From Escherichia phage vB_EcoM_G17: a stretch of 64,000 nt of DNA. Positions within the stretch are counted from its first letter, which is position 1, and each line of letters starts with the position of its first letter. Shown piece after piece: positions 17,015-50,198 of the stretch. Where the stretch lies: sequence record MK327931.1; one strand, written 5' to 3'. A model generated the notes under the pieces. The model had not been told where the DNA came from and did no database searches. It was given only the letters and a program-made list of their open reading frames with translations. The translations under genes and the position numbers were made by a program.

Positions 17015-17023
17015 ATTTGTCTC

Positions 17024-17392: not shown

Positions 17393-17717
17393 GTAATGTT
17401 TTAATTCGATGATACATTTTCATACCAATATTACCAAAGATACCATATCCAAGTACTAAAATGTATGCGATAAGCATAGTAATAATTACTATAGTACCAA
17501 AACTATAATGTACACTACTGATACCCATTGTAGTTTCAACGATTATTTGAGAAACTGAAAGAATCAAAAGTACAACTACAATTGGATGATTTGGGTACAT
17601 TCGGTTGAACAACGTTTTGTACTTAAAGAAGCACAGTACTCCACCAAATAAGAAGTAAACAATGTAAATGCAAGCAACAGCATAGGCAAACATGTTAGTG
17701 TAATAAATCATTACCAA
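17370..17717 (-). CDS. small polytopic membrane protein (paralogue family, tail NLPER)
   Basis: 115 aa; hydrophobic. Confidence 0.6.
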   Translation of the reverse strand: MVMIYYTNMFAYAVACIYIVYFLFGGVLCFFKYKTLFNRMYPNHPIVVVLLILSVSQIIVETTMGISSVHYSFGTIVIITMLIAYILVLGYGIFGNIGMKMYHRIKTLRDNLPER

Positions 17718-17720
17718 TCC

Positions 17721-18059
17721 TTACTTTTCAGGGATATTAGAACGCCATATATCAATGCGATGAACTAGTCCAAAGAACAACCATACTGGAACGGCAGCTA
17801 TCATAACAACAAATGAAAACCCAGTCAAGACCGATACCAGATTTAATTCATCAGTACTATACCCACATATCAGTACTTCTAATATTCCCCACGTACATGC
17901 ACAAAACATCAAGAATGAAATTGGGGCATCATAGTAGATACGTTCATATAAAGTAGTGTATCGGAAGAATGCAATAATGTAGCAAAACATATAATACACC
18001 CAAACCAAAGATACTACATAAAATGATACTTTGTTTATTAATTCAAAATATTGTTCCAT
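17721..18059 (-). CDS. small polytopic membrane protein (paralogue family, tail NIPEK)
   Basis: 112 aa; hydrophobic. Confidence 0.6.
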   Translation of the reverse strand: MEQYFELINKVSFYVVSLVWVYYMFCYIIAFFRYTTLYERIYYDAPISFLMFCACTWGILEVLICGYSTDELNLVSVLTGFSFVVMIAAVPVWLFFGLVHRIDIWRSNIPEK

Positions 18060-18061
18060 TT

Positions 18062-18343
18062 TTACCCCAATATATATTCAGAGAGTAATGTATTAGCTTC
18101 ATCTTTGTTCTTAAGGTAATACATGTAATATAGATTCGGTTCACCATCTTTAGCACTCAAATCGAAGTACTTTAAACTATGTACTTTCATAGTAAAAACA
18201 AATAATGACTTAAAACCAATCTCACCGTACTTAATAAACAGTTCATCCAAATGAATGTAACTTTTTGATTTGGATAATTCTTTAACGTCTGCATCAATTT
18301 CAGATAAAAGATGCTTACCTATTAAGTTTTCAAATGAACGCAT
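18062..18343 (-). CDS. hypothetical protein (93 aa)
   Basis: ORF in array. Confidence 0.5.
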   Translation of the reverse strand: MRSFENLIGKHLLSEIDADVKELSKSKSYIHLDELFIKYGEIGFKSLFVFTMKVHSLKYFDLSAKDGEPNLYYMYYLKNKDEANTLLSEYILG

Positions 18344-18404
18344 GATTTTATCCTTTACCGCAATTTTTATGGTTTATTAAGAATACATCAGAACATCAGT
18401 TCTG

Positions 18405-19079
18405 TCAATAAAAAACTGGATCTTCTTCAGTAATTGGTATTTCTCTACGCACATCACACGAAAGAGGATCAGTAATGAATACATTCCCATCTTTATCCAT
18501 CATCACATTACTTGAATGAATGTCTGGTACAAAACGCCCGTGAAACTCTTTCATGATGTTAGCAGCGACCGTTGCAATAGCAATCTCTTCAGAATTTCCA
18601 CGCATATCATTCACTGAAGTTGCGTACTGACCAGCATGTGCATACGAATACAAATCTCCAATTTTAGTACTAACAAAGTCATCATAATTATTTTTTTGTT
18701 TAATTATAGGATAGTACTTGTCCATCTCATACCATCCAAAGTTTCCTTGTTCGTTTGCACTGTAGATCACAGGAAGAAACTTGGTTCCTGCGTTTTCAAT
18801 GCAGTACTTTGCATAAGCACGAAAACCATCCCAGCGTGAAGTGGTTACTTTAAATGCACTTCCAGGATAGTTTTTATGTTCAACTACTACAGAGTACATC
18901 CCCATTCCAAGCAAAGTAAGTCCAGCAGCTTTAACTTGTGGAAAGATTACGCGTTCAGCATAAGGAATATCAAACTCCATCGCACAACGAGTTTTTGATG
19001 GACGCAAAATGTCAATTAAAGTTTTGAATATTTCTTGCTTAGTCATTACTTTATCCTCTGTAGTTAATACCAACATCAT
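18405..19079 (-). CDS. Putative atypical kinase-like protein
   Basis: LGMGMYSVVV (Gly-loop-like), AFKV, and DIHSSNVMMDKDGNVFITDP (catalytic-loop/DFG-like); weak, by eye. Confidence 0.35.
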   Translation of the reverse strand: MMLVLTTEDKVMTKQEIFKTLIDILRPSKTRCAMEFDIPYAERVIFPQVKAAGLTLLGMGMYSVVVEHKNYPGSAFKVTTSRWDGFRAYAKYCIENAGTKFLPVIYSANEQGNFGWYEMDKYYPIIKQKNNYDDFVSTKIGDLYSYAHAGQYATSVNDMRGNSEEIAIATVAANIMKEFHGRFVPDIHSSNVMMDKDGNVFITDPLSCDVRREIPITEEDPVFY

Positions 19080-19081
19080 AA

Positions 19082-19112
19082 CAAAAAAGGCTGACCGAAG
19101 TCAACCCTTTTA
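19082..19112 (-). promoter_or_regulatory. PeSL-like stem-loop / terminator (copy 4)
   Basis: aaaaaaggctgaccgaagtcaacccttttatta. Confidence 0.55.
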
Positions 19113-19115
19113 TTA

Positions 19116-19535
19116 TCATTTACAGTTTTCTATAACTATTGCACGTTTTAGTATTTTACTTTCATAAACATACTTAAGATGACCTTCTTCACGAATACGA
19201 TTGAACACATATCCTAGTTTATCTTTTAGTACTGAAGCGGTATCAATGTCAAGATTAACTTCAACCCCTCCTGTTAATTTAACTTTATATGTAAAGCTAA
19301 AAGCATCACCAGATTCAACCAATGGGACTACTTGTTCATACGTATTCAACATAACTCGTTCATCATTAACTAAATTATATATTACTATATCACAAGTTTT
19401 TACCCCAATTTCCTCTAAGGTAGGAGCATTGTCTACTATAACATCTTTTACTGTATTAGCAACCTGTTTAGCATCTGCTGCATATACATTAAAACTAAAA
19501 AGTACTAAAATAATACTTAAAAAAATCTTTTTCAT
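19116..19535 (-). CDS. secreted protein (signal peptide)
   Basis: MKKIFLSIILVLFSFNVYAADA... Confidence 0.6.
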   Translation of the reverse strand: MKKIFLSIILVLFSFNVYAADAKQVANTVKDVIVDNAPTLEEIGVKTCDIVIYNLVNDERVMLNTYEQVVPLVESGDAFSFTYKVKLTGGVEVNLDIDTASVLKDKLGYVFNRIREEGHLKYVYESKILKRAIVIENCK

Positions 19536-19544
19536 TATATATCC

Positions 19545-19874
19545 TTATTTTATTTTACACGTCATATCGGGTTGTGCTGGTTTATTATTTTTAAACGGAT
19601 TAGGTTTTTTATCTTTCTTTTTATCTTTTAAAGGTTTTTTGTCTTCTTTTTTATCTTTATCTTTGTCTTTTTTATTTTTATCAGGTTCAGAGGGAGTATT
19701 ACATTGTGCTGGGGGTTGATTAGTTGGAGTACAGCTATTGTCTGATGGGAGTATTACTTCTTTACAATTGTAAAATAGTAAACTTTTATTTGTGGTTAAA
19801 TTATGAAAACGATAGTTACGTTCATTATTATAATAAATTGTTTTAGTACTTTCAATGTCATTACACATTGCCAC
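19545..19874 (-). CDS. hypothetical Lys/Asp-rich protein (109 aa)
   Basis: KDKDKDKKEDKK low-complexity tail. Confidence 0.5.
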   Translation of the reverse strand: MAMCNDIESTKTIYYNNERNYRFHNLTTNKSLLFYNCKEVILPSDNSCTPTNQPPAQCNTPSEPDKNKKDKDKDKKEDKKPLKDKKKDKKPNPFKNNKPAQPDMTCKIK

Positions 19875-19878
19875 GGAA

Positions 19879-20130
19879 TCACCGAAACTCTTTTTCTATT
19901 CCCATTACATCAGTCTTACGCTCAGATAGTATACCTGAAGTATATGAATCTTTGTTGTCAAACGCATTAAATCCAATAGTTCTGTCGGTGTCGTGTATTA
20001 TTCCTTTTGTGTATGAGGTAGTATAGAACTCCCCATTTCTGAAATCCTGCCTTGCTACGGAGCAATGATAATCTGCACCATAAGCAGTACTGGAAAATAA
20101 TACAATTCCAAATATAATATATTTTTTCAT
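19879..20130 (-). CDS. secreted protein (signal peptide)
   Basis: Start at MKKYIIFGIVLFSSTAYGA (RBS agaggg); the longer track ORF would run through the PeSL element. Confidence 0.55.
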   Translation of the reverse strand: MKKYIIFGIVLFSSTAYGADYHCSVARQDFRNGEFYTTSYTKGIIHDTDRTIGFNAFDNKDSYTSGILSERKTDVMGIEKEFR

Positions 20131-20164
20131 TGTAATCCCTCTTCTTAATTCCTCTTTTGTATTT

Positions 20165-20200
20165 ACAAAAAAAGGCTGACCGAAGTCAACCTTTAGTTTT
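20165..20200 (-). promoter_or_regulatory. PeSL-like stem-loop (copy 5)
   Basis: acaaaaaaaggctgaccgaagtcaaccttt. Confidence 0.55.
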
Positions 20201-20201
20201 A

Positions 20202-21746
20202 TCATTTACCGTATTTGCTCATGATGTCCTTTTCCCAATGAGTTACGTTACCGTTATCGTAATCTTTAAAGGAATTATCAAGAGTAGTTAATGCATATTC
20301 GTATGCTTCAGGTGATTCAATGTCAACATCATCAGCACCATTTACTAAATCAGTCCATGCTTTTTGTAGTTTACGAGCATTTTTACCAACATTACTTTTA
20401 ATCCAACTAATGTTTTTGTTGATACTCTTATTATCAGCACCAGCTTTTTTACCAATATCGGATATCCACATCATTAGCTTTTGGAGTTCATGAATGGAGT
20501 TGTCGTTCATTTCACGATCTTTAGCCAATTCTGCTTCCATGCCATCAGTATCAGTACCATCTTTAGAACCTACATCAATTCCATGTTTAGCTAATAGTTT
20601 ACCAAGTTCAAAGAATGCTGCCTCAGCAGGGAAGTCATAACCTTTGTCTTTGTAGTTGTTCCATGCACTATCAAACTCATCTACAAATCGGTTGGCATAA
20701 TCTGGATTGTCCACGAGAGCTTTGTACACTGCCATTGCATGTTCAAATCCTTCTTTGTCAGAACCAAACTCTCCCATTTCTGGACGATGAATGTAACCAT
20801 CCATATCAACAGTATCAGGTAAATCATCATGAGATGTTTCAGCATCTTTCTGGTCAACTGCACCTTCTTCATCTGCACGAACTAAGTAACCATCTTTTGA
20901 TACTTTCTCACCATGTTCAGCTTCATACTTTTTCATAGTATTGAATGCAGAATTCATAACAGTGATGAATCGAGACTTCTCACCTGGTGAGTAAGAATCT
21001 AATGCTGCTTTAATAGCATCATGTACTAATTGAATCTTATCATCTTTGCCTTCAAGACGATTTTCTAACTTAGCAAGAACATTCTTAACTTGCTGGGCGT
21101 TAGCACGGTCTTCTTTACCTATACGGTTAACAGTATGGAGGATGCTTTCAAGACTTGCTTCTTCAGCAGTCGCTTCTTCTTGTCCTTCAAGTGCACGCAT
21201 GATAGTACTGAATACTTCAGTTGGTTCAGTACTGGTATTTCCACTCATTGCATCAAGTACAGCTTGTGCTTTGACTTTTAATTCTTCTTTAGGTACAGAT
21301 TGCAATTCTTTCACAATACCTTGGATAAGTTGTGGTTTATTAGCAAAAATCTTACCTAACTTATCAGACAATTCTTTGACAGGGTTAACCGCCTTTGGTG
21401 CTTCTTGTTTTGGTTCTTCTTTCGCAGGAGAAGACTTTTCTTTTTCTTCACGTTCCATATCAGCTAGGCGTTGTTTTTGTGTAGCATTAAGAAGTCCCAA
21501 TGAATTAACATAACGTAGCTTTTCTAGCTCAGTCATGTTCTCAGTACTCTTAACTTCACCTGCTTCTGCGTTTGCTTTACCAGCTAGACCAGTTCCTTGG
21601 TTACGTGATCCACGTGAACCTTGACCTGCTTGATAACTATTTGGTCGGCGGTTGCGTTCACTCCATTTATCCGAGTGACCAGCCATGTTACCACCATTTT
21701 TATCAGTAAAATTACTTGGCATTTGATTTCTCTCCATAGATTTCAT
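20202..21746 (-). CDS. hypothetical Lys/Glu-rich protein (514 aa)
   Basis: Basic low-complexity N-terminus, YVNSLGLL motif shared with 21992..22375, acidic C-terminal half. Confidence 0.7.
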   Translation of the reverse strand: MKSMERNQMPSNFTDKNGGNMAGHSDKWSERNRRPNSYQAGQGSRGSRNQGTGLAGKANAEAGEVKSTENMTELEKLRYVNSLGLLNATQKQRLADMEREEKEKSSPAKEEPKQEAPKAVNPVKELSDKLGKIFANKPQLIQGIVKELQSVPKEELKVKAQAVLDAMSGNTSTEPTEVFSTIMRALEGQEEATAEEASLESILHTVNRIGKEDRANAQQVKNVLAKLENRLEGKDDKIQLVHDAIKAALDSYSPGEKSRFITVMNSAFNTMKKYEAEHGEKVSKDGYLVRADEEGAVDQKDAETSHDDLPDTVDMDGYIHRPEMGEFGSDKEGFEHAMAVYKALVDNPDYANRFVDEFDSAWNNYKDKGYDFPAEAAFFELGKLLAKHGIDVGSKDGTDTDGMEAELAKDREMNDNSIHELQKLMMWISDIGKKAGADNKSINKNISWIKSNVGKNARKLQKAWTDLVNGADDVDIESPEAYEYALTTLDNSFKDYDNGNVTHWEKDIMSKYGK

Positions 21747-21774
21747 TTTTTCTCTATGTCTATATTTATAGTAT

Positions 21775-21805
21775 AAAGAAAAGGCTGACCGAAGTCAACC
21801 TTATT
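21775..21805 (-). promoter_or_regulatory. PeSL-like stem-loop (copy 6)
   Basis: aaaaggctgaccgaagtcaacctta. Confidence 0.55.
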
Positions 21806-21808
21806 TTG

Positions 21809-21922
21809 TTACTTAGATTGTTCTTGTGCAGGTGGATTTACTTTTTGATCCACTACATAGAATACACCACCAACCAGTACTGCGGCGATGAGTGCAGCAA
21901 CTACAAATTTCAAACCTTGCAT
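21809..21922 (-). CDS. small membrane protein (37 aa), not in ORF track
   Basis: MQGLKFVVAALIAAVLVGGVFYVVDQK...; RBS gaggta. Confidence 0.35.
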   Translation of the reverse strand: MQGLKFVVAALIAAVLVGGVFYVVDQKVNPPAQEQSK

Positions 21923-21949
21923 ATATGATACCTCAGTTATATTGAGAAG

Positions 21950-21990
21950 TTATGATACAACAAAGGGCTGACCTTAGTCAACCCCTTTTT
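21950..21990 (-). promoter_or_regulatory. PeSL-like stem-loop (copy 7, loop variant)
   Basis: gggctgaccTTAGtcaacccc; minus strand TTGACT-N18-TATCAT. Confidence 0.5.
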
Positions 21991-21991
21991 A

Positions 21992-22375
21992 TTACTTCTT
22001 GAACTTATGTTTTTCACTTTCGATTGCATTCACGATTTCATCATGAATTTTACGAAGATTGTGAGTTTTCTTGAGAGAATCATGCAATGCACGGAATGCA
22101 GAGTGTACAGTTGCTTTAAAGTGCTCTTTAGGAGTTACTTTAAGTTTCTCGATAATATCACGTACATAGATTGGGTGATCTTCAAACACACGGTTTAGCT
22201 CGTGGCCTAGAGACTCTAGACTAAACGCTTTTTCACGTGAAGGACGATCATGTGCAAGACTTTGGTCAGGTTTTAGAAGACCTAGTGAATCTAGATATTT
22301 GTGCTTATGTGCATTGTCTAGACCAGAAATATCAACATCATGGGATGGATCTTTCTTATTCCATTTATCAACCAT
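21992..22375 (-). CDS. hypothetical protein (127 aa), N-terminal paralogue of 20202..21746
   Basis: Shares DKW...KYLDSLGLL motif. Confidence 0.6.
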   Translation of the reverse strand: MVDKWNKKDPSHDVDISGLDNAHKHKYLDSLGLLKPDQSLAHDRPSREKAFSLESLGHELNRVFEDHPIYVRDIIEKLKVTPKEHFKATVHSAFRALHDSLKKTHNLRKIHDEIVNAIESEKHKFKK

Positions 22376-22490
22376 TTTTATAACTCCTATAAGAGATAAA
22401 TTTTACTATAATATTTATAGTTCCTGTGTCATTTATATGAACTGACATAGAAAATTATATCATATTAAAAATGGTTGTCCCAAAGTTAAA

Positions 22491-22964
22491 TCAGTACTGA
22501 TCAAGTTCAGATGTAAAAATGAATGCATCCATGTCTTCCAACGTAAGTTTTAAGTCTGGTACGTACTTAAGAATAACGCACTCTGGCTTCTTAATAGCAG
22601 CTTGATAAGCAGCAATGGCAAGGGATTCCAACTGCTGTGCTGTATAATTTTTACGTTCTGCATTAAAAACTTTGTTTTTGATATCACCACCTGGGAGTTT
22701 TTCAAACTCACGCATAACTGCGGTAAGAACATCGTCAGCAGTGTTACTATATACCCATTGGGGTAATTGCATTACATTATAAATCACACCACTATCATCC
22801 ATCAAAGAGATCCATTTATATCCATCACTCGCACTAAACAAACGCCCTTTTAGTACTGTGTTATTAGTTAAATTTACAAATGCAAAAATATCTTGTTCGT
22901 TAAGTTCAATACTATTAACATTTACCCAACTCATTACGATTCCCCATTCATAAATCACGAACAA
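22491..22964 (-). CDS. hypothetical protein (157 aa)
   Basis: ORF in array. Confidence 0.55.
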   Translation of the reverse strand: MFVIYEWGIVMSWVNVNSIELNEQDIFAFVNLTNNTVLKGRLFSASDGYKWISLMDDSGVIYNVMQLPQWVYSNTADDVLTAVMREFEKLPGGDIKNKVFNAERKNYTAQQLESLAIAAYQAAIKKPECVILKYVPDLKLTLEDMDAFIFTSELDQY

Positions 22965-23544
22965 TATTCATTAAACACAATTTAGGTTTTATAGCATTCA
23001 ACACCCATATGCATTCTTTGTAAGTAGCTATTATATCATCTAAATGCTCAGTTACAATGCTTTCTTGAAAATATTCTTCATCATTGAGCTTTGCTAATTT
23101 AGTAACATCACACGTAGGCACTATAGGTCTGGATTGTACACCCATTCCATTATTGATATTAGTGAAATGTACAAAATGGTACTTCACAACACCTTTATCT
23201 AGATTTACTATACATGACAAGTTTTCCAACTCAGTTAGTTCTTTACTACAAGTAACATTAATGAAACCAGTATTATAGGCTCTATAATCATCTACTGATA
23301 TCTCAAAATCATTACGCTGAAATATAAGTGAAATGAGTTTGTCCAGTGGTTTTACATTCATATATTTTAATGAATTTACGTATGATACTTCAATCTTAGA
23401 TGAAATTATTTTTTTACTAAGTGCAGTCAATTCTTTATTAGATTTACCTGTTAATACTATAGGTTTAAACCTAGAACTCTTATTTTTCTTTGATACTTTA
23501 AAACGACCTTTACGATTCATATTTTCCTCAATTAATAATTTCAC
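22948..23544 (-). CDS. hypothetical protein (198 aa)
   Basis: ORF in array. Confidence 0.55.
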   Translation of the reverse strand: MKLLIEENMNRKGRFKVSKKNKSSRFKPIVLTGKSNKELTALSKKIISSKIEVSYVNSLKYMNVKPLDKLISLIFQRNDFEISVDDYRAYNTGFINVTCSKELTELENLSCIVNLDKGVVKYHFVHFTNINNGMGVQSRPIVPTCDVTKLAKLNDEEYFQESIVTEHLDDIIATYKECIWVLNAIKPKLCLMNIVRDL

Positions 23545-23749
23545 ATTTAACGTGTGGTTTATATAACATAATTAACCCATTTTTAAGTACAATGATTGTT
23601 CCTCGGTCAGTAATAGAAACGTTTTTAATTATACTTTTTTTATATGTTTCAACATATTTCTCTTCGTAATTTATACATTTAACATATTCTTTTTGTTTAG
23701 CACTTACAACAGTACTGAATAATATCAGTACAAGTACTATATATTTCAT
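23528..23749 (-). CDS. small secreted protein (73 aa)
   Basis: MKYIVLVLILFSTVVSA signal peptide. Confidence 0.55.
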   Translation of the reverse strand: MKYIVLVLILFSTVVSAKQKEYVKCINYEEKYVETYKKSIIKNVSITDRGTIIVLKNGLIMLYKPHVKCEIIN

Positions 23750-23801
23750 TACTATACCTTATAAACAAAAAGGAATTCATTTAAGAATTCCTATTTTACA
23801 A

Positions 23802-24095
23802 TCATTTATCTAACATACCATTGTGTAAACGTTCATATACTTCAGTTCGACGCAAATTCACAATATCTTCTGCGTATTTTAATGTAAATGCCCATGCTTT
23901 TGGATGTACGTTAAGCTTCATACGAATTCGATTTTTCATCAACTCTCCACTTAAACGAATAAATTCGTGTACACCACGACTACCGTATTCAGTAATTAAA
24001 TCATTAATGTACATATCACGAAGAGTTTCATCTGCACATTCTTTAACCATTTCTACGTCAGCGACGATGCTTTCATTAACTGAAGTACTGATCAT
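23802..24095 (-). CDS. hypothetical protein (97 aa)
   Basis: ORF in array. Confidence 0.5.
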   Translation of the reverse strand: MISTSVNESIVADVEMVKECADETLRDMYINDLITEYGSRGVHEFIRLSGELMKNRIRMKLNVHPKAWAFTLKYAEDIVNLRRTEVYERLHNGMLDK

Positions 24096-24106
24096 TTTAA
24101 TTTACC

Positions 24107-24373
24107 TTATTTAAATTCGACTGTAATTTTATCACCTTCAACTACGAACTTACAGTTGTAGCGACGTGCCATATCCATGTACATATGCTCAGAGTACCAG
24201 GGAACATCAATAATCGGATGCTCTGCGTATTGTAGAACTTCACGGTCGCCAACTGTAGTGATGACGAAAGAAATGTTCATCTCTCGTAAAAACAGTTCAG
24301 CACCAGGAGAACGATTAATAAATTCAGTATCATTACGTAAAGTAAATCCATTATATTGTAATTTAAGCTTCAT
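24107..24373 (-). CDS. hypothetical protein (88 aa)
   Basis: ORF in array. Confidence 0.5.
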   Translation of the reverse strand: MKLKLQYNGFTLRNDTEFINRSPGAELFLREMNISFVITTVGDREVLQYAEHPIIDVPWYSEHMYMDMARRYNCKFVVEGDKITVEFK

Positions 24374-24387
24374 ATGTTATCCTCTAT

Positions 24388-24732
24388 TCAATACCATTCT
24401 TTAAAACCATTAAGTTCGGCTATGTGAGTAATTATAACACATATAACATTCAGGTCAAGTATAATTTGATCATAATTTAATTTTATACGATCATCATTAT
24501 ATGCCCTAAAGACTACATCGTAATCAAAGAAATTTGCGTTTTCATCATTCATTGAAACGATTCGGTATCTACGTCTTCCATCTGTATTGAATATTGTTAA
24601 ACACTGTTGAAACTTTCTCATTAACTGTTTAGATAGGATATTATAATATTCAATATCTTTTTGTGAATTACGTGGGTCATCAGGAAGATAGAATGAAACA
24701 AATTTCTTTAATTCTATTTGAGTTTTATCCAT
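24388..24732 (-). CDS. hypothetical protein (114 aa)
   Basis: ORF in array. Confidence 0.5.
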   Translation of the reverse strand: MDKTQIELKKFVSFYLPDDPRNSQKDIEYYNILSKQLMRKFQQCLTIFNTDGRRRYRIVSMNDENANFFDYDVVFRAYNDDRIKLNYDQIILDLNVICVIITHIAELNGFKEWY

Positions 24733-25165
24733 ATATTACCTCATGTGTTTCTCTTTTACTTTGTCGGAACTCATCCTTTGCTTCCTTAACTGACATGATA
24801 CGAACTAATTTAGCACTACCGCAATAGTACTGAACCTGATTACGACCAATGTCTACATGGTGGTCTGGAACTTCATATACAGATATAGCAAACCCAGCAC
24901 GATGCAATTTACCTAAGTCCATAGTGAAGAATCTGAACAAATCTTTCAAACTTTGACAGCCAAATACCCATCCACTTTTGATTGAATAGATCCCATCCTC
25001 AGTTGGTTCAGGTTGGAATTGAGAAGGTGTAGTCATGAGCATACGGTCAAATCCATTTTTAGTACTGTATCTGGTTGAATACCGTGCAAACGGACCTACA
25101 GTTCGTGCAGGATCTAAGTTAGGTTCAATGTAACTAAATTTAAGTTCAAAACGATATACATACAT
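24725..25165 (-). CDS. hypothetical protein (146 aa)
   Basis: ORF in array. Confidence 0.55.
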   Translation of the reverse strand: MYVYRFELKFSYIEPNLDPARTVGPFARYSTRYSTKNGFDRMLMTTPSQFQPEPTEDGIYSIKSGWVFGCQSLKDLFRFFTMDLGKLHRAGFAISVYEVPDHHVDIGRNQVQYYCGSAKLVRIMSVKEAKDEFRQSKRETHEVIYG

Positions 25166-25193
25166 AATTAAAATCCTCTAATTTATTAAGAGA

Positions 25194-25230
25194 ATTATAA
25201 CAAAAAAGGCTGACCGAAGTCAACCTTTGT
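25194..25230 (-). promoter_or_regulatory. PeSL-like stem-loop/promoter (copy 8)
   Basis: attataacaaaaaaggctgaccgaagtcaaccttt; overlaps stop of 25220..25411. Confidence 0.55.
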
Positions 25231-25411
25231 TTTGAAGTTCTTGAACTAATTGTCGTACTTCGTTAATATTTTTACACTGCTTTACAGTGAAGTAATCATA
25301 CTTACGACCATAGGTTCTTGGGTCATCACCTTCCATATACTGCTGCACATCAAAGATTTGTAAGTAGGGATGCTGCATAACACGAATATTATCACTTTGA
25401 TAAATCAACAT
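25220..25411 (-). CDS. hypothetical protein (about 63 aa)
   Basis: Start chosen at MLIYQSD to avoid overlap with upstream gene; track gives 25220..25465. Confidence 0.45.
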   Translation of the reverse strand: MLIYQSDNIRVMQHPYLQIFDVQQYMEGDDPRTYGRKYDYFTVKQCKNINEVRQLVQELQNKG

Positions 25412-31812: not shown

Positions 31813-32601
31813 TTAAATGTTAGTAGTATAGTACTTGATTTCGTTTTGAATTGCAAGTTCTATTTGTTTATTGAAAAGAATTCCAAACTCTTTAATTGAT
31901 TCACAATCGAATTCAATAGAAAAAGTATACTCTGGTACACGTACATTGTCAATACCCAAATACTCTTTTATGTAAATTTTAATGAGTTTACATAGTGCAG
32001 TACTAAGACATTGAATTTCAAAATGTTTTGCACCTTTGTCAAAATACTTGAATGCATCAATATCACCGACAATAAAACTATTCTTTAATGTAGTGAATAG
32101 GTTCTCAGGAAACACGGTAATAGGTGACATTGATTTAAGAATGTATGTATCTTTGGCATTCTTAATGTACTCAATGAAGCAGTAGTTAACGTCAGGCTCG
32201 ATTGAACGATCCGCGTTATGATACCAGTGTTTAAACTCACTGTACTCAGCAAACTTATGCTGGCGTAATGCGTTACAATCTTCACACAATGCAGTCATGT
32301 TCTCTTTATCATTACCGCCCTGAAGACAGTCCAGTATGTTATGGTCTAACGTCATGCGTACAAGACGTTTCCCTTTAAGTACATAAGGTCTGAATTTATA
32401 ACGTTCTTTAGTACTGTGCTTATGTAAAGTGAATACCACATTGGATTCACCACAACAATCACATTTAAAGCCATCACGTGACATTACATGAATGAGTTTG
32501 CGTGTGTTCGGTCCAAACTCAGATTTAGTAATGTTATCCACAATTTCTGATGGTTGGTAATATTTTGAATTCCGTTGAATCAGTTCATCGATAGTGCTCA
32601 T
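31813..32601 (-). CDS. HNH endonuclease (putative homing endonuclease)
   Basis: CDCCGESNV ... TLDHNILDCLQGGNDKENMTALCEDCNALRQHKF = HNH with flanking Cys pairs. Confidence 0.75.
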   Translation of the reverse strand: MSTIDELIQRNSKYYQPSEIVDNITKSEFGPNTRKLIHVMSRDGFKCDCCGESNVVFTLHKHSTKERYKFRPYVLKGKRLVRMTLDHNILDCLQGGNDKENMTALCEDCNALRQHKFAEYSEFKHWYHNADRSIEPDVNYCFIEYIKNAKDTYILKSMSPITVFPENLFTTLKNSFIVGDIDAFKYFDKGAKHFEIQCLSTALCKLIKIYIKEYLGIDNVRVPEYTFSIEFDCESIKEFGILFNKQIELAIQNEIKYYTTNI

Positions 32602-32832
32602 TTACATTATTCCTTCTATGCAACAACCAAGAATTACTTTTTTAACTTCAACAACTCGTACCAAATAGAATCCATTTGAAAAGTTAAAACTATACATTTG
32701 TACTAAGGCATCTGCTTCAGATTTCGCACGGATACATGATAGATAAATTTCACGTATATCATCATCCAACGATACTTGTTTCTCTGCATTGATGACAATA
32801 GAACGAATCTCAAAACTAACACCATAACTCAT
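32602..32832 (-). CDS. hypothetical protein (76 aa)
   Basis: ORF in array. Confidence 0.5.
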   Translation of the reverse strand: MSYGVSFEIRSIVINAEKQVSLDDDIREIYLSCIRAKSEADALVQMYSFNFSNGFYLVRVVEVKKVILGCCIEGIM

Positions 32833-33038
32833 TGAGTTTGTCCTACAATAAGCTTTGTGTTAGTATTACTATTGTAACACCACATTTGTTCTTTATTAAC
32901 TGTAATCCAAATATCTTTGTTTACTTGTTCGTATGTACTATCACGTACTGCTATGCATTGATTCATGGAATTCATTGGGGTTATTTGTATACCGGAATTA
33001 ACAGAGAAAGCGACTACTAAAAAGATTACTGAATTCAT
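32829..33038 (-). CDS. small secreted protein (69 aa)
   Basis: MNSVIFLVVAFSVNSG signal-like N-terminus. Confidence 0.5.
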   Translation of the reverse strand: MNSVIFLVVAFSVNSGIQITPMNSMNQCIAVRDSTYEQVNKDIWITVNKEQMWCYNSNTNTKLIVGQTQ

Positions 33039-33102
33039 TGGATATTCCTTAATGGTTAATCATCCATCTCTTCGAGATGTCTGTTCGCTTCTAATACTAC
33101 GT

Positions 33103-33131
33103 ATTCTACGCGAATGATTAATAACTGTCAA
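33103..33131 (-). promoter_or_regulatory. sigma70-like promoter TTGACA-N17-TAGAAT
   Basis: Minus strand: TTGACAgttattaatcattcgcgTAGAAT upstream of 32829..33038. Confidence 0.5.
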
Positions 33132-33655
33132 GGACTTTTAATATTGACGGGATTTGAGGAAGGGATTTTTCTTCCCCCCACAAGGAGGGAAATTTGACGC
33201 TGATGGTATCAGAGCTATTGCATTGAAGATTACTCATAACGAGTGCGAAAGCGGGTCATCCTGTTTCTCTCTACTTCAGTTTCATATGACGGTCTACACT
33301 TTTAAACATAGTGTATCTTCATTAAGTATCTATGCAATCAAATACTTAATGTGAGTACTCAAATTTTGGACGCAACTTTCCTGTACAAAATTCGATAACT
33401 CTCCCTTAGATAATTCGTAAGGTGTTATCCTTATATGTCTATCAAGGAACCACCAGCTATCCTAACGTGGTTCTTTATACAGCCGCATTGCCGTGAGGGG
33501 TTCAAACTATGCCCACATCTAACGGGTTTCTTTTGCTGTTCGCACTGTCGGACTGCTCAACTGCCCTCTACGTTTTCGAGTGGATCAGGTACATGAATAT
33601 CATGCCAACAGAATTGTACAAGATAATTATATCACAAACTTTTACTTCATCCCAT
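33132..33655. other. ORF-free island with raised GC; candidate structured non-coding RNA (strand undetermined)
   Basis: About 530 bp without credible ORF in a very dense genome; GC-rich stretches (cgcactgtcggactgctcaactgccctc); ends at a bidirectional terminator. Confidence 0.35.
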
Positions 33656-33690
33656 AAAAAAAGGTTGGCATAAGCCAACCTTTTTTCTTT
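33656..33690. terminator. bidirectional rho-independent terminator
   Basis: aaaaaaaGGTTGGCataaGCCAACCttttttcttt. Confidence 0.75.
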
Positions 33691-34654
33691 AGAAATCTTC
33701 GTATTCGTACCCTTTTGCAAGTACTAGCTTCTTAAGCTTTTGCATAGCTTCACTGTACTTTCGATGTATTGATGAACGGGATTTAACATATTTTCCATTA
33801 TCATCAACAAAACCATTATCAGCAATCTCACGAAGCGTTTCAGGTTCATATTCACCTAGACCATGAACACGCTGGATAATCTCACGTTCTTTAGTACTCA
33901 ATTCGTTAGTCAGTTCATTGATAGCATAACGTAAAGGTGCACGAATACTATCAACATTGAGGTTAAAATCAGAAGCAGGTGAATGAATAATGTCACCTAG
34001 TGTACCATCGGTAACACCGTCTAATGGTGCATCCAGAGAAGTGTATTCGCTTTGAAATAACAAACAGTTATTAACATGCTGAATCTCAATCCCAGTACCC
34101 TCTGAGATTATTTCAGGAGTTGGGCGAACACCATGTTTACGCATATATTCCTGGCAGAATCTTTTTACTTTGATCTTATGAACACTCATATAACGTGGGA
34201 AGTGTACCATATAGTTAGCGTCAGAACTTTCGTTATAAACTGTCATGTAAATACTAGAAGAAGCATAGGTAATGAACTTCACATTCTTATTAAGATCAAA
34301 GGTTTTTAGTGCTCTCATGAACCCCTCAACACCATATGAAATCTTATCTTCAAATGGGATATAACAAGTACATTTACTTGCTACATCAATAATAAGTCCA
34401 TAATTGTAACGAACTAACAGTTCAGTGTTTTTCTTTACATTGATACCAGCTTGAATATCACGAATTAGATCTTCATTGGAAACATTTGGTGGTCGCTTAA
34501 GTGTAATATTATATTTGAAACTGCTTTGTACTTTACCTTCATTTTCATCTTTATCTTCAACGAAATCTAAGGCTTCTAGTGTGTTGACTTCTTCATTAGC
34601 AAAACATTCATCCAGAACTTCTTCGGCAATTGTATTTAAATCAAGCTTTTTCAC
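33689..34654 (-). CDS. sigma-70 family sigma factor (regions 2 and 4 recognisable)
   Basis: YGVEGFMRALKTFDLNKNVKFITYA (region 2.2-like), VHFPRYMSV (2.4-like), C-terminal LSTKEREIIQRVHGLGEYEPETLREIA...KYSEAMQKLKK (region 4.2 HTH-like). Confidence 0.7.
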   Translation of the reverse strand: MKKLDLNTIAEEVLDECFANEEVNTLEALDFVEDKDENEGKVQSSFKYNITLKRPPNVSNEDLIRDIQAGINVKKNTELLVRYNYGLIIDVASKCTCYIPFEDKISYGVEGFMRALKTFDLNKNVKFITYASSSIYMTVYNESSDANYMVHFPRYMSVHKIKVKRFCQEYMRKHGVRPTPEIISEGTGIEIQHVNNCLLFQSEYTSLDAPLDGVTDGTLGDIIHSPASDFNLNVDSIRAPLRYAINELTNELSTKEREIIQRVHGLGEYEPETLREIADNGFVDDNGKYVKSRSSIHRKYSEAMQKLKKLVLAKGYEYEDF

Positions 34655-45923: not shown

Positions 45924-46013
<90 letters not shown>

Positions 46014-46025
46014 AGAAGTAAGATA

Positions 46026-46126
<101 letters not shown>

Positions 46127-46178
46127 GCCAAGAGTCGGCATAGGTGCAGCACTACAAAGTTCTTCAAGCTGCTTGGTA

Positions 46179-46210
<32 letters not shown>

Positions 46211-46211
46211 T

Positions 46212-46268
<57 letters not shown>

Positions 46269-46270
46269 TA

Positions 46271-46398
<128 letters not shown>

Positions 46399-46417
46399 GC
46401 ATACTCGAAGTACCTCT

Positions 46418-46455
<38 letters not shown>

Positions 46456-46456
46456 A

Positions 46457-46821
<365 letters not shown>

Positions 46822-46830
46822 TAATACCCG

Positions 46831-47232
46831 CTAGTAGTTTAAGTCTGCGGCGTTGAATACACCAAGTGAAGTCTTACCACGTAGTTTAGGTGAAAGGACA
46901 TACTTTGTCAATTTCTTTTTACCGTACCAGCGATTGAATTCGTCTTCAGTGACATATGGGTTCTGGAAATCGTATTCGCGTTTCTTATGCAGTTCTTTAG
47001 CACGTTCTGCAATCTTGGTTCGTTGGTCTTCTGGAATGTCGAATGTATTGTTACGTTCACACCATTCGTGCTCTAATGCACCCTGAAGAAACTGTTCGGT
47101 TTCTTTGACTAGAGTGATTTTAGTCAAGCCTTTTTCGATGTTCATATAATCATCGACGTATCCATTCCAAATAACAATCTCTGGATTGCCGTCAATTTCT
47201 TGAAGCATTTTGATCAAGTCATTCTTTTTCAT
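46831..47232 (-). CDS. hypothetical protein (133 aa)
   Basis: Shares N-terminus with 46603..46818. Confidence 0.6.
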   Translation of the reverse strand: MKKNDLIKMLQEIDGNPEIVIWNGYVDDYMNIEKGLTKITLVKETEQFLQGALEHEWCERNNTFDIPEDQRTKIAERAKELHKKREYDFQNPYVTEDEFNRWYGKKKLTKYVLSPKLRGKTSLGVFNAADLNY

Positions 47233-47240
47233 TTAAATTC

Positions 47241-47498
<258 letters not shown>

Positions 47499-47519
47499 TT
47501 ATACCTCTCATTGTTTATG

Positions 47520-47591
<72 letters not shown>

Positions 47592-47595
47592 TAAT

Positions 47596-48203
<608 letters not shown>

Positions 48204-48254
48204 ATAAACCTCACTATACGTAACTTACACCATATACGTCTGATTGTGGAATTC

Positions 48255-48279
48255 ATTATATCAGTACTGAACTATTTAG

Positions 48280-48284
<5 letters not shown>
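48255..48284 (-). promoter_or_regulatory. sigma70 consensus promoter TTGACT-N17-TATAAT with CAGTACTG
   Basis: Minus strand: TTGACTaaatagttCAGTACTGATATAAT. Confidence 0.65.
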
Positions 48285-48693
<409 letters not shown>

Positions 48694-48702
48694 CTTTTTT
48701 TT

Positions 48703-48864
<162 letters not shown>

Positions 48865-48868
<4 letters not shown>

Positions 48869-49029
48869 AATCGTACCAGTAGTTCAATTAAGTACATTTC
48901 ATATGCTGGATCGTTGATAAGTTTATCATACAGATGTGGCTCTGAAATGAATTCCCAATGATACTTTAGCCATCTACCGATACCCGAATATCTAAAATTA
49001 ATGTCATTCATCCATTCTTCATGTGTCAT
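48865..49029 (-). CDS. MTHEEWM small protein (54 aa), tandem copy 2
   Basis: MTHEEWMNDINFRYSGIGRWLKYHWEFISEP...; ATGA overlap with neighbours; not in ORF track (<60 aa). Confidence 0.55.
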
Positions 49030-49190
49030 AATCGTACCATTATTTCAATAAAGAACCACGGATACACTTCATGATTCATAAGTTTATCGTATTCTGCTGG
49101 GTCTGATATGATTTCCCAATGATACTTTAGCCAACTACCGATACCCGAATATCTAAAATTAATGTCATTCATCCATTCTTCATGCGTCAT
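49026..49190 (-). CDS. MTHEEWM small protein (54 aa), tandem copy 3
   Basis: MTHEEWMNDINFRYSGIGSWLKYHWEIISDP...; about 70 bp nearly identical to copy 2. Confidence 0.55.
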   Translation of the reverse strand: MTHEEWMNDINFRYSGIGSWLKYHWEIISDPAEYDKLMNHEVYPWFFIEIMVRL

Positions 49191-49213
49191 GGTTTTTAAC
49201 CTTTAATTAAAAT

Positions 49214-49290
49214 TGGCCGAGGTAGAGGGACTTGAACCCCCAACCTAGAGATTAGAATTCTCTTGCACTATCCAATTGTGCTATACCCCG
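49214..49290 (-). tRNA. tRNA-Arg (anticodon UCU), CCA encoded
   Basis: Acceptor CGGGGTA/TACCTCG, D-arm GCAC-AATTGGATA-GTGC, anticodon arm AGAGA-ATTCTAA-TCTCT, T-arm GGGGG-TTCAAGT-CCCTC. Confidence 0.8.
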
Positions 49291-49294
49291 TATT

Positions 49295-49410
<116 letters not shown>

Positions 49411-49443
49411 ATGTTATGTCCCATTATATAATGAATTAATGAT

Positions 49444-49659
49444 TTATGCAAGTGCTTTAGATACACCGACACCAATAATTCCAGTGATATCGATATGGAT
49501 ATTGGCAAGTTGATTACTATCATATGGGTTTGTTTCTGTAATAACCAATGTTGTATCATTGACTAAAACCACAGTACCTTTTACACGATAACCATGTAGT
49601 AGTACTTGAACCTCATCTTCAGGTTTTAATGATTGAATAACTTCAAATAAAGTTGTTTC
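49444..49659 (-). CDS. hypothetical protein (71 aa)
   Basis: Start taken at internal METTLFEV with RBS aaggaa; longer track ORF (to 49770) would overlap neighbour. Confidence 0.45.
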   Translation of the reverse strand, partial: ETTLFEVIQSLKPEDEVQVLLHGYRVKGTVVLVNDTTLVITETNPYDSNQLANIHIDITGIIGVGVSKALA

Positions 49660-49678
49660 CATTTTTTGTATTCCTTGT

Positions 49679-49861: not shown

Positions 49862-49862
49862 T

Positions 49863-50198
<336 letters not shown>

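What the first reader, a model, noticed from the sequence alone, without database searches (positions are those of the whole stretch)
33132..33690. A 530-bp ORF-free island with raised GC next to the sigma-factor gene: candidate structured RNA
Intergenic spacers elsewhere are usually under 100 bp, yet this interval has no credible ORF (the only track ORF, 33154..33354, has odd composition and no RBS). It contains GC-rich segments atypical of this AT-rich genome and ends at a strong bidirectional terminator, so a plus-strand transcript would terminate cleanly. Large structured RNAs have been reported in phage genomes. I could not recognise any known RNA family by eye.
Basis: inference. Interest (0 to 1): 0.65.

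Follow-up and report, generated by a model that had tools for sequence, protein, structure and literature searches.

The report
New large structured phage RNA gene
The "empty" 650-bp gap beside the phage sigma-factor gene encodes, on the opposite strand from the one first proposed, a roughly 480-nt intricately folded non-coding RNA of a family I could not find described; jumbo phages carry 4-5 diverged copies and some enterobacterial prophage-like islands carry one.

Summary
In detail: window 33039-33688 has no conserved ORF and its GC is raised. The window is Escherichia phage Sharanji (Asteriusvirus). The gap holds a structured RNA gene on the MINUS strand. An extended -10 promoter (TGATATAAT, 33634-33626) lies just after the sigma-gene terminator. 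The RNA runs from about 33619 to about 33144 and ends before a sigma-70 promoter (33131-33103).

Sharanji has four co-oriented paralogs (60-72% identical); related genera have five. On 47 non-redundant copies, 68 proposed pairs in 14 helices (two of them pseudoknot helices) are 96% paired, and 49 pairs show compensatory changes. G-U outnumbers A-C 120 to 9, which fixes the strand.

Rfam 15 gives no match, and the searchable literature does not mention the RNA. Homologs also sit next to integrases and CI-like repressors in E. coli, Citrobacter and Serratia chromosomes.

Function is unknown. My best guess is a trans-acting folded RNA. The main rival is a ColE1/T4-like primer RNA at replication origins.

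The parts
33656..33686 (-). Intrinsic terminator of the upstream sigma-factor gene: stem 33663-33669/33674-33680, loop ATAA, flanked by A7 and T6. It marks the upstream boundary of the RNA gene.
   Evidence: Sequence read directly. Weak terminator-type Rfam hits occur only here.
33626..33654 (-). Promoter of the RNA: -35-like TGGGAT (33654->33649), 17-nt spacer, extended -10 TGATATAAT (33634->33626).
   Evidence: The TGnTATAAT box is present in essentially every aligned copy. The -35-like box matches the 'divergent RpoD-like promoter' (TGAAACG + classic -10) reported for phages CBB and GAP32 (PMC5259590). The same promoter type precedes the tRNA cluster at 49403.
33144..33619 (-). Body of the structured non-coding RNA, copy A of four in this phage. 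The 5' end at about 33619 is inferred from the -10 box. The 3' end is not mapped; conservation runs to repeat R2 at 33144.
   Evidence: The nhmmer family profile covers 33630-33131 on the minus strand. Covariation is; helix coordinates are.
33545..33611 (-). 5' domain. P1 (33611-33604 with 33551-33545) encloses a variable hairpin and hairpin P1b, which has the conserved loop GAAAA(N)GUA. The short helix PK1 (33556-33554 with 33544-33542) crosses P1.
   Evidence: P1b covaries: CCUAUC/GAUGG, CCCUU/AAGGG, UCAAU/AUUGA, CCGAU/AUUGG.
33418..33539 (-). Central domain. P2 (33539-33535/33483-33479) and P2b (33525-33522/33494-33491) flank the nearly invariant CACGGCAAUGCGGC. P3 is a hairpin (33473-33468/33452-33447). 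GAUAGACAUAU (33443-33433) is nearly invariant. P4 is a hairpin (33433-33430/33421-33418). UAAGGGAG lies at 33408-33401; its AAGGGA core is invariant in all 47 copies.
   Evidence: P3 has compensatory changes at all 6 pairs.
33353..33401 (-). P5 (33401-33399/33355-33353) closes an optional ~31-nt hairpin module, AAUUUUGUACAGGAAAGUUGCGUCCAAAAUU (33392-33362). In other copies this module sits at a second site, inside P10. In Sharanji it occurs only inside the RNA copies.
33217..33338 (-). 3' domain closed by the long-range helix P6 (33338-33332/33223-33217). It contains P7, P8 (33278-33274/33228-33224), P9 (33271-33267/33251-33247) and P10, plus the H-type pseudoknot PK2 (33290-33286 pairing with the P9 loop at 33259-33255).
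   Evidence: In this copy PK2 reads GUCAU/AUGAC, against GUUGU/ACAAC or GUUGC/GCAAC in other copies.
33144..33206 (-). 3' module: direct repeat R1 CCAUCAGCGUCAA (33206-33194), C-rich/G6 hairpin P11 (33192-33171), direct repeat R2 CAAAUCCCGUCAA (33156-33144). R1 and R2 change in the same way across copies and lineages. About half of the other copies carry an intrinsic-terminator-like hairpin plus a U7 run between R1 and P11; copy A does not.
   Evidence: in K64-1 both repeats read CUUCAA. P11 varies only by C-G/U-G exchange and shows no double changes.
33103..33131 (-). Near-consensus sigma-70 promoter (TTGACA-17-TAGAAT) for the next transcription unit, whose first ORF is 33038->32829. It marks the downstream boundary of the RNA gene.
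   Evidence: 11 of 12 matches. Other copies carry a -35 box (TTGACT or TGAACG/TAAACG type) at the equivalent place.

Best explanation
Window ~33619->~33144 on the minus strand is a free-standing gene for a large (about 480 nt here, 500-650 nt in relatives), highly structured non-coding RNA.

Shown:
- It has its own extended -10 promoter directly after the sigma-gene terminator, and it is followed by a separate sigma-70 promoter for the next genes.
- It folds into at least 15 helices in three domains, including two pseudoknot helices, with long stretches of conserved unpaired sequence.
- It is one of four diverged, co-oriented paralogs in Sharanji. Eneladusvirus has five paralogs (mapped in fHe-Yen9-04) and blastn indicates about five in Mimasvirus; a divergent form occurs in Klebsiella phage K64-1.
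- Single copies lie next to integrase and CI-repressor genes of integrated elements in E. coli, Citrobacter and Serratia.

Inferred:
- The RNA acts in trans as a folded molecule, either as the RNA core of an RNP or as a ribozyme-like or decoy RNA aimed at a host or phage machine. It does not act as a leader of its neighbouring genes.
- The paralogs have been kept distinct for a long time, which suggests partly specialised roles or a dosage effect.
- The biochemical activity is not known.

The confidence of 0.85 is for 'a minus-strand structured RNA gene'. The trans-acting part alone I put at about 0.5.
For: Identity and copy number: the window is phage Sharanji OR545507.1. There are four copies, at 81.2, 192.0, 270.7 and 326.7 kb, all on the same strand. 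Most of the 61-71 phage records that match hold 3-5 copies, the weakest matches fewer.

Structure: RNAalifold on 33 copies predicts 57 pairs, 33 of them with compensatory changes. A named structure of 68 pairs is 98.0% paired on 33 sequences and 96.4% on 47 sequences, 14 of which were not used to derive it. Compensatory changes occur at 45 and 49 pairs respectively. The covariation score is 0.50-0.51, against 0.06-0.12 for slid controls, and 0 of 500 shuffles reach it. Hairpin P1b adds further covariation.

Strand: 120 G-U cells against 9 A-C cells, and the strand-neutral helix picking agrees. A conserved TGnTATAAT box lies upstream on the minus strand.

Not coding: the ORF is frameshifted in a close relative, and there is no shared frame across copies.

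Not a leader: copy B converges on + strand genes. Copy A and the D-type copies are followed by their own promoters.

Not a known family: Rfam finds nothing at gathering score or at E<=10 in the window, and nothing at E<=5 in 13 diverse copies.

Outside jumbo phages: full-length chromosomal homologs with the same promoter type lie beside serine or tyrosine recombinases and S24/CI repressors.
Against: No transcript data exist for any of these phages in the searchable literature, so transcription, the ends and the stability of the RNA are all inferred. Single-sequence folding energy is not better than shuffles (z = -1.48). The helices were picked from the same kind of alignment on which they were then scored, which inflates the scores, although the slid controls and the 14 new sequences argue against an artefact. 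The 3' end is undefined: copy A has no intrinsic terminator, and hairpin P11 is supported only by C-G/U-G exchange. The roughly even spacing and shared orientation of the copies (about 24, 93, 175, 260 and 335 kb in fHe-Yen9-04) are not expected for ordinary trans-acting RNA genes and hint at a cis, chromosome-level role. No partner molecule has been identified.
Confidence: 0.85

Rival explanations
1. Primer RNA of replication origins (ColE1 RNA II-like or T4 ori-like). Each copy would be an origin. The promoter drives a structured transcript whose 3' module (R1, the C-rich/G6 hairpin, R2) forms a persistent RNA-DNA hybrid. Phage or host RNase H processes the hybrid and a DNA polymerase extends it. 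The chromosomal elements would carry one such origin.
For: There are 4-5 copies per genome, all co-oriented and roughly evenly spaced: 81/192/271/327 kb in Sharanji and about 24/93/175/260/335 kb in fHe-Yen9-04. By my own post hoc estimate, a smallest gap this large has a probability of roughly 0.005-0.05 under random placement. The copies are independent of the identity of neighbouring genes. The promoter is the class that the CBB paper found mainly in the region holding DNA-synthesis genes (PMC5259590). A G6 run opposite a C-rich tract, and two direct repeats that co-vary identically near the 3' end, recall the RNA-G/DNA-C interaction of ColE1 (from my own knowledge). The phage encodes RNase HI and a Pol I-like protein. 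In the E. coli island an AT-rich, GATC-clustered repeat region lies about 450 nt downstream of the RNA.
Against: Conserved sequence and covarying helices, including pseudoknots, extend over the whole ~450 nt and persist across genera. That is far more constraint than known primer RNAs show (from my own knowledge). In the temperate elements the RNA sits between the integrase and the CI repressor, which is a typical cargo position rather than the replication module. In the phages the next gene's promoter starts within about 15 nt of R2, leaving no obvious unwinding element. No antisense regulator was looked for or found.
Confidence: 0.2
2. A DNA-level repeated element (regulatory, recombination or packaging site) whose conservation reflects protein binding to double-stranded DNA rather than an RNA fold.
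For: R1 and R2 are direct repeats that change identically, and their last base is the same in all paralogs of a genome (GUCAA throughout Sharanji, GUCAG throughout fHe-Yen9-04, CUUCAA in K64-1). That is what binding sites for one co-evolving trans factor would look like. R2 lies just upstream of the next promoter's -35 box.
Against: Across the body of the element, 49 of 68 pairs show compensatory double substitutions, and wobble pairs are strand-specific. Double-stranded DNA binding sites do not produce this. At most the 3' module could be a DNA-level element.
Confidence: 0.04
3. A long cis-regulatory 5' leader (riboswitch or attenuator type) controlling the genes downstream of each copy.
For: Copies A, C and D lie upstream of genes on the same strand. 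Some copies contain a terminator-like hairpin with a U7 run between R1 and P11.
Against: Copy B is convergent with its neighbours, so it has no downstream gene. Copy A and the D-type copies are followed by complete promoters of their own. The downstream genes are unrelated from one paralog to another and in the chromosomal elements.
Confidence: 0.03
4. One reading: a plus-strand structured RNA ending at the bidirectional terminator at 33657-33686.
For: The hairpin with its T6 run could terminate plus-strand transcripts. Most helices are equally Watson-Crick on both strands, and the RNAalifold energies of the two strands are similar.
Against: No conserved plus-strand promoter lies upstream. There are 120 G-U cells on the minus strand, which would be A-C mismatches on the plus strand, against 9 the other way. 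The conserved TGnTATAAT box faces the other way. In most other copies no terminator occupies the equivalent position.
Confidence: 0.03
5. A missed protein-coding gene.
For: ORFs of 39-66 aa exist in the window copy.
Against: The 66-aa ORF is frameshifted in the 92%-identical UE-S1 ortholog. There is no common frame or strand among the 47 copies, indels are not multiples of three, and substitutions are pairwise compensatory.
Confidence: 0.01

Closest known systems
GOLLD (RF01998) and ROOL (RF03087): large ornate RNAs of phages and prophages with unknown function
   Same: Size class (about 500-800 nt). Many covarying helices with pseudoknots and conserved unpaired nucleotides. Located in phage and prophage genomes as free-standing genes. 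No known function. (Properties of GOLLD and ROOL are from my own knowledge and from the abstract of 10.1101/2024.12.08.627333 listed.)
   Different: No sequence or structure match to either covariance model at E<=10. The hosts are Enterobacterales phages rather than Lactobacillales, rumen or lake organisms. There are 4-5 diverged paralogs dispersed through one genome, which I do not know to be a feature of GOLLD or ROOL. Whether this RNA multimerises is unknown.
ColE1 RNA II (plasmid replication primer) and T4 ori(uvsY)/ori(34) origin transcripts
   Same: An RNA of about 500 nt from its own promoter. A G-run and C-run near the 3' end. Several origins per T4-type genome. RNase H and Pol I-type enzymes are encoded by the phage.
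   Different: No sequence homology was found. The structure is conserved much more deeply. No antisense RNA I equivalent is known. Hybrid formation has not been tested. The position in temperate elements is not that of a replication module.
Phage P4 CI RNA immunity system (seqA/seqC repeats pairing with seqB)
   Same: Two short direct repeats (R1, R2) that co-vary identically flank a terminator-like hairpin, which recalls P4 seqA/seqC. The RNA lies in the immunity-side region of temperate elements.
   Different: No complementary 'seqB' segment could be found inside the RNA, either by covariation or by direct complementarity search. The RNA is about seven times larger than P4 CI RNA. There is no sequence similarity.
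PA5oct 'putative lncRNA' ncRNA001-004 (RNA-seq-defined, Pseudomonas jumbo phage related to the Rak2 group)
   Same: ORF-free regions of 236-619 nt in a related jumbo phage, two of them abundantly transcribed; ncRNA002 is 451 nt (PMC7318152).
   Different: No detectable homology between the family profile and the PA5oct region containing ncRNA001 and ncRNA002. ncRNA003 and ncRNA004 were not examined.

Membership tests
Any Rfam 15 family (including GOLLD, ROOL, HEARO/IsrB, RNase P, tmRNA, group I/II introns, 6S, OLE, raiA) | Covariance-model score at or above the family's gathering threshold | tested here: not met
   The whole window at gathering score yields only 6 tRNAs. Window 32900-33800 at E<=10 yields only terminator-type chance hits at 33574-33792 and noise. 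Thirteen diverse copies at E<=5 give no hit on the element. ARAGORN finds no tRNA or tmRNA here.
Structured non-coding RNA (generic) | Base pairs maintained by compensatory substitutions beyond shuffled and slid controls | tested here: met
   On 47 sequences, 49 of 68 pairs have double changes and 96.4% of cells are paired, against 38-45% for slid controls. The covariation score is 0.509 against 0.06-0.12, and 0 of 500 shuffles reach it.
Structured non-coding RNA (generic) | A defined transcribed strand with a promoter | tested here: met
   G-U 120 against A-C 9. A conserved TGnTATAAT box with a TGGGAT/TGAAAC box lies upstream on the minus strand. Transcription itself is not testable with these tools.
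Cis-regulatory leader / riboswitch | Lies in the 5' UTR of, and is co-transcribed with, a regulated downstream gene; related genes follow the different copies | tested here: not met
   Copy B is convergent with its neighbours. Separate promoters follow copy A and the D-type copies. The downstream genes are unrelated.
ColE1-type RNA II primer / R-loop origin | A ~500-nt promoter-driven RNA with a G-run able to pair with a C-run of template DNA near the 3' end | tested here: inconclusive
   The length, the promoter and a nearly invariant run of five to six G opposite a C/U-rich arm are present. The same features fit an ordinary RNA hairpin.
ColE1-type RNA II primer / R-loop origin | Persistent RNA-DNA hybrid, RNase H processing, DNA synthesis starting at the 3' end; an antisense RNA I regulator | not testable with these tools
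   This needs replication-intermediate mapping. The antisense promoter was not searched for systematically.
P4-type RNA immunity (CI RNA) | Repeated target sequences complementary to a segment of the immunity RNA | tested here: not met
   The repeats R1 and R2 exist and co-vary identically, but no consistently placed complementary segment was found.
Protein-coding gene | An ORF conserved in frame among relatives | tested here: not met
   The ORF is frameshifted in UE-S1, and there is no shared frame or strand among the copies.

The most novel reading that the evidence does not exclude
The element is the founding member of a new class of phage-borne catalytic or RNP-core RNA. Its 4-5 long-diverged paralogs in each Rak2-group jumbo phage would work together, for example as a hetero-oligomeric RNA assembly or as specificity variants of one activity. 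Temperate elements of Enterobacterales would deploy a single copy, possibly as a decoy against jumbo-phage superinfection.
Probability: 0.2. Interest if true: 0.92.

Novelty: categorically new. Interest (0 to 1): 0.82.

Why it matters
Large, intricately folded bacterial and phage RNAs are rare, and almost every one characterised so far has revealed unusual biochemistry. This family has several points in its favour.

- It is backed by unusually rich covariation.
- It comes from cultivated, genetically tractable E. coli phages (Sharanji, 121Q, PBECO4, phAPEC6) that infect K-12, so it can be deleted, probed and purified directly.
- Each genome keeps 4-5 ancient paralogs, which is odd for an RNA of this size.
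- It links virulent jumbo phages with small integrated elements in enterobacterial chromosomes.

If the rival origin-primer reading is right, it would instead identify the so-far unknown replication origins of the Rak2 group of jumbo phages. "New" here means a new RNA family or class. Whether its mechanism is new cannot yet be said.

Tried and rejected
- Rfam at gathering score and at permissive E-values, on the window and on 13 relatives: nothing. ARAGORN: nothing in the gap.
- Single-sequence MFE against shuffles: z = -1.48 on both strands, uninformative.
- Second copy inside the window: none.
- First IMG/VR pattern (GGTAAGGTG...TCTATC): too strict, it found only 121Q.
- Chance pattern matches: discarded after the nhmmer check (L020, L024, L040, L046, L047, L054, L056-L061, L064-L067, L087, L096, L106).
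- Homology to the RNA-seq-defined PA5oct ncRNA001/002: none.
- Intramolecular partner for repeats R1 and R2: none found by covariation or by complementarity.
- Anti-Shine-Dalgarno mimicry by CCUUA (P4): rejected, because that arm covaries to CCUA or CUCA in other copies.
- Hammerhead-like reading of CAGAUGAG...GAAA: rejected, because the core differs at invariant positions and there is no Rfam hit.
- Small conserved ORFs after UAAGGGAG or GGGGGGAUG: not conserved.
- Homologs of the E. coli island's neighbouring proteins in jumbo phages: none, so there is no evidence that the island is a jumbo-phage satellite.
- Plasmids: no copy.
- Literature: no mention of this element or of transcriptomics for Asteriusvirus, Mimasvirus or Eneladusvirus.
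- Covariance model: none was built, because the element exceeds the size for which calibration is allowed. nhmmer profiles were used instead.

Full report
**What the window is.** The interval is 100% identical to Escherichia phage Sharanji OR545507.1, a 350-kb Asteriusvirus jumbo phage of the Rak2-related group. Window position equals record position minus 47,777. Nearly all genes around the finding are on the minus strand.

**Checking the observation.** Between the small ORF 32829-33038 and the sigma-factor gene 33689-34654 lies a 650-bp gap that holds only short ORFs.
- GC in 200-nt windows rises to 0.42-0.455, against a genome mean of 0.34.
- When ORFs of at least 45 aa are masked, only 20 ORF-free intervals of at least 150 nt remain in the whole genome.
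No frame or strand is shared among family members.
- The A7-stem-loop-T6 hairpin at 33656-33686 is present as described.

**It is a repeated, conserved element.**
- blastn with the core (33120-33640) finds 61 phage records and 253 places, that is 3-5 copies per genome. The records cover Asteriusvirus, Mimasvirus (GAP32, CBB, XbC2), Eneladusvirus (Serratia BF, the Yersinia fHe-Yen9-03/04 phages, Erwinia phages), the Salmonella Munch group and others. Identity is about 70% over about 430 nt, and the places are almost never annotated.
- I fetched the rest of the Sharanji genome. It holds exactly four copies, at 81.2 kb (the window copy, A), 192.0 kb (B), 270.7 kb (C) and 326.7 kb (D). All are on the same strand, 60-72% identical to each other, and each sits in its own unannotated gap.
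- Pattern scans of IMG/VR and of metagenome contigs, followed by an nhmmer check, raised the set to 93 hits and 47 sequences below 94% identity.
- A divergent member occurs in Klebsiella phage K64-1, an Alcyoneusvirus.

**Which strand.** The plus-strand reading fails and the minus-strand reading fits.
- To the right of every copy (in window orientation) lies ATTATAnCA, the reverse complement of the extended -10 box TGnTATAAT. A TGGGAT/TGAAAC-type box precedes it at a 17-nt spacing.
- In the window the -35-like box is at 33654->33649 and TGATATAAT at 33634->33626, immediately after the sigma-gene terminator.
- This matches the "divergent RpoD-like promoter" (TGAAACG plus a classic -10) reported for CBB and GAP32 (PMC5259590). 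The same promoter type precedes the phage tRNA cluster at 49403.
- Independently, in helices chosen by a strand-neutral criterion, A-C "pairs" read on the plus strand (which are G-U on the minus strand) outnumber G-T by 24 to 2. In the final structure, G-U cells outnumber A-C cells by 120 to 9.

**Structure.**
- RNAalifold on 33 copies, read as minus-strand RNA, predicts 57 pairs, 33 of them with compensatory changes.
- Adding helices found by a covariation scan gives 68 pairs in 14 helices: P1-P11 and P2b, plus two crossing helices PK1 and PK2.
- On 33 sequences, 98.0% of cells are paired and 45 pairs have double changes. The covariation score is 0.50, against 0.07-0.11 when the partners are slid, and no shuffle out of 500 reaches it.
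- On an independently made alignment of 47 sequences, 14 of them new, 96.4% of cells are paired and 49 pairs are compensatory. The score is 0.509 against 0.06-0.12.
- A further hairpin, P1b, with the conserved loop GAAAA(N)GUA also covaries.
- Conserved unpaired blocks lie between the helices: CACGGCAAUGCGGC, GAUAGACAUAU, UAAGGGAG, GACCGUUG and AACCCGC.
- Folding energy alone does not distinguish the RNA from shuffles.

**Boundaries and modules.**
- The 5' end is inferred at about 33619.
- At the 3' side, two direct repeats, R1 (33206-33194) and R2 (33156-33144), flank a C-rich/G6 hairpin, P11 (33192-33171).
- About half of the copies (the B and C types), but not copy A, have a canonical terminator-like hairpin with a U7 run between R1 and P11.
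- R1 and R2 change in parallel. One U/C position has the same base in both repeats in all 47 sequences. The last base is lineage-wide: GUCAA in every Sharanji copy and GUCAG in every fHe-Yen9-04 copy. In K64-1 both repeats read CUUCAA. I found no complementary partner for them. This remains unexplained.
- A 31-nt hairpin module (33392-33362) is optional. It occupies either of two sites in different copies, and in Sharanji it occurs nowhere outside the RNA copies.
- Directly after R2 comes an 11/12 sigma-70 promoter (33131->33103) for the next genes. Other copies have a -35 box at the same place.

**What it is not.**
- It is not in Rfam 15.
- It is not a tRNA or a tmRNA.
- It is not protein-coding.
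- It is not a leader: copy B converges on its neighbours, the other copies are followed by their own promoters, and the neighbouring genes are unrelated from copy to copy.
- It is not homologous to the RNA-seq-defined ncRNA001/002 of the related phage PA5oct.
- The papers on Sharanji, CBB, PA5oct and jumbo phages in general, and searches for phage structured RNAs and phage transcriptomics, do not mention it.

**An unexpected extension.** A scan of one genome per bacterial species found full-length homologs in bacterial records.
- Citrobacter amalonaticus: the RNA lies directly after a 520-aa large serine recombinase and before a CI/S24 repressor.
- Serratia sp. 2723: it lies after a 568-aa serine recombinase.
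- An Enterobacteriaceae MAG: it lies beside a CI/S24 repressor, next to thiM/thiD.
- Serratia sp. L9 chromosome: a partial copy.

In addition:
- Two of 5,426 complete E. coli genomes carry a copy in an island of roughly 11 kb between ffs and ybaA, which also holds an IS-disrupted integrase.
- That island shares a 118-aa protein (73% identity) with the Citrobacter element.
- The E. coli copy has the same TGGGAT...TGTGATATAAT promoter and all the modules.
- It is 80.6% identical to the B-type copy of Serratia phage BF.
- No plasmid carries the element.
- Two neighbouring proteins of the E. coli island have no homologs in jumbo phages.

**Interpretation.** I consider it established, short of transcript data, that this is a gene for a large structured RNA on the minus strand. 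The function is inferred.
- Conserved architecture extends over the whole molecule. The gene has free-standing promoters. In temperate elements it occupies a cargo-like position between integrase and repressor. These points favour a trans-acting folded RNA, whether an RNP core, a ribozyme-like RNA or a decoy. I put this at about 0.5.
- The main rival is a ColE1/T4-type primer RNA marking replication origins. I put this at about 0.2.
  - In favour: all copies share one orientation and are roughly evenly spaced (about 24, 93, 175, 260 and 335 kb in fHe-Yen9-04). The 3' module carries the G6 run and the co-varying repeats. The promoter is the class the CBB paper found mainly in the region holding DNA-synthesis genes. 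The phage encodes RNase HI and a Pol I-like protein.
  - Against: the depth of structural conservation, and the lack of room for an unwinding element before the next promoter.
- DNA-only, leader, plus-strand and coding readings are each below 0.05.

**Verdict.** The element is a previously undescribed RNA family with a striking multi-copy distribution, and it occurs in cultivable E. coli phages, so it can be tested directly.

Noticed in passing
L119 15990-16589 (E. coli LR-29-1 chromosome NZ_AP027515.1, about 3,479,000); L116 3510-4125; L118 5335-5902; L115 6423-7037; L117 3513-3873: Homologs of the phage RNA, full-length except in L117 (partial), sit in bacterial chromosomes beside serine or tyrosine integrases and CI/S24 repressors. 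Local GC is low in three of the four 8-kb loci measured (0.40-0.44; 0.51 in the MAG locus). The E. coli copy is 80.6% identical to one paralog of Serratia jumbo phage BF, and only 2 of 5,426 E. coli genomes carry it.
   Followed up: partly
window 33206-33194 and 33156-33144 (R1, R2), and the same positions in all relatives: Two ~11-nt direct repeats inside the RNA change identically across paralogs and lineages (CGUCAG, CGUCAA, UGUCA, and CUUCAA in K64-1). No complementary partner was found. A common trans factor, or pairing to template DNA, is possible.
   Followed up: partly
window 33392-33362; also Sharanji record 270577, 270729 and 326741: A ~31-nt hairpin module (AAUUUUGUAC...GCGUCCAAAAUU) is optional. 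It occupies either of two different sites in the RNA in different copies, and copy C has it at both. In Sharanji it occurs nowhere outside the RNA copies.
   Followed up: partly
L119 about 17000-17140 (downstream of the E. coli island's RNA copy): An AT-rich stretch carries clustered GATC sites and short direct repeats (TATCGATCGTT...). It looks like a replication origin or a Dam/SeqA-regulated site and lies about 450 nt past the RNA.
   Followed up: no
window 11851-25250 (repeat families D1/D2: 11851, 13265, 14547, 19042, 20170, 21779, 21919, 25161): A repeated intergenic cassette on the minus strand. The terminator hairpin GGGTTGACTTCGGTCAGCCC contains a TTGACT -35 box in its stem and is followed by TGCTATAAT, so terminator and early promoter overlap.
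   Followed up: no
window 45934-50176: Seven minus-strand tRNA genes (Thr, Asn, Met, Ser x2, Arg, Gly). One group is driven by a TGGGAC-N17-TGATATAAT promoter at 49403, the same class as the RNA's promoter. A 161-nt tandem duplication lies at 48846-49167.
   Followed up: no
window 273-5947: Six paralogous plus-strand genes share a near-identical RBS and N-terminus (AGGAGG..ATG TTA CCT TTT ..; MLPF.RM..YGN), spaced about 0.8-1.3 kb apart. This is a tandem gene family at the start of the window.
   Followed up: no
window 31813-32601 (minus): A 262-aa ORF two genes downstream of the RNA has a Cys-rich motif that looks HNH-like by eye (CDCCGESN...LDHN...CEDCNALRQHKF), suggesting a homing-endonuclease-type gene. 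This was not tested.
   Followed up: no
window, many intergenic sites (e.g. 16347, 26965, 31275, 47797, 48257, 48661): A recurrent motif TATACAGTACTGA(N8-10)GTCAA(G/C), together with a general abundance of AGTACT in intergenic repeats, may be another promoter or regulatory class. AGUACU also recurs inside the RNA next to helix P6.
   Followed up: no
L002 35444-36073 and 36254-36710 (Sharanji record coordinates, outside the window): Two further ORF-free intervals with raised GC (630 nt at GC 0.41; 457 nt at GC 0.37) lie in a sparsely annotated 34.8-40.5 kb region. They have no Rfam hit and no similarity to the RNA family described here. They may be other non-coding elements.
   Followed up: partly
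Loci L029, L037, L021, L026 (5' ends of the D-type copies, e.g. L029 about 7994-8050): In several relatives a strong hairpin with a U6 run lies only about 4 nt after the -10 box of the RNA promoter. The upstream gene's terminator therefore overlaps the RNA's transcription start, and transcripts from the promoter would begin inside the hairpin.
   Followed up: no
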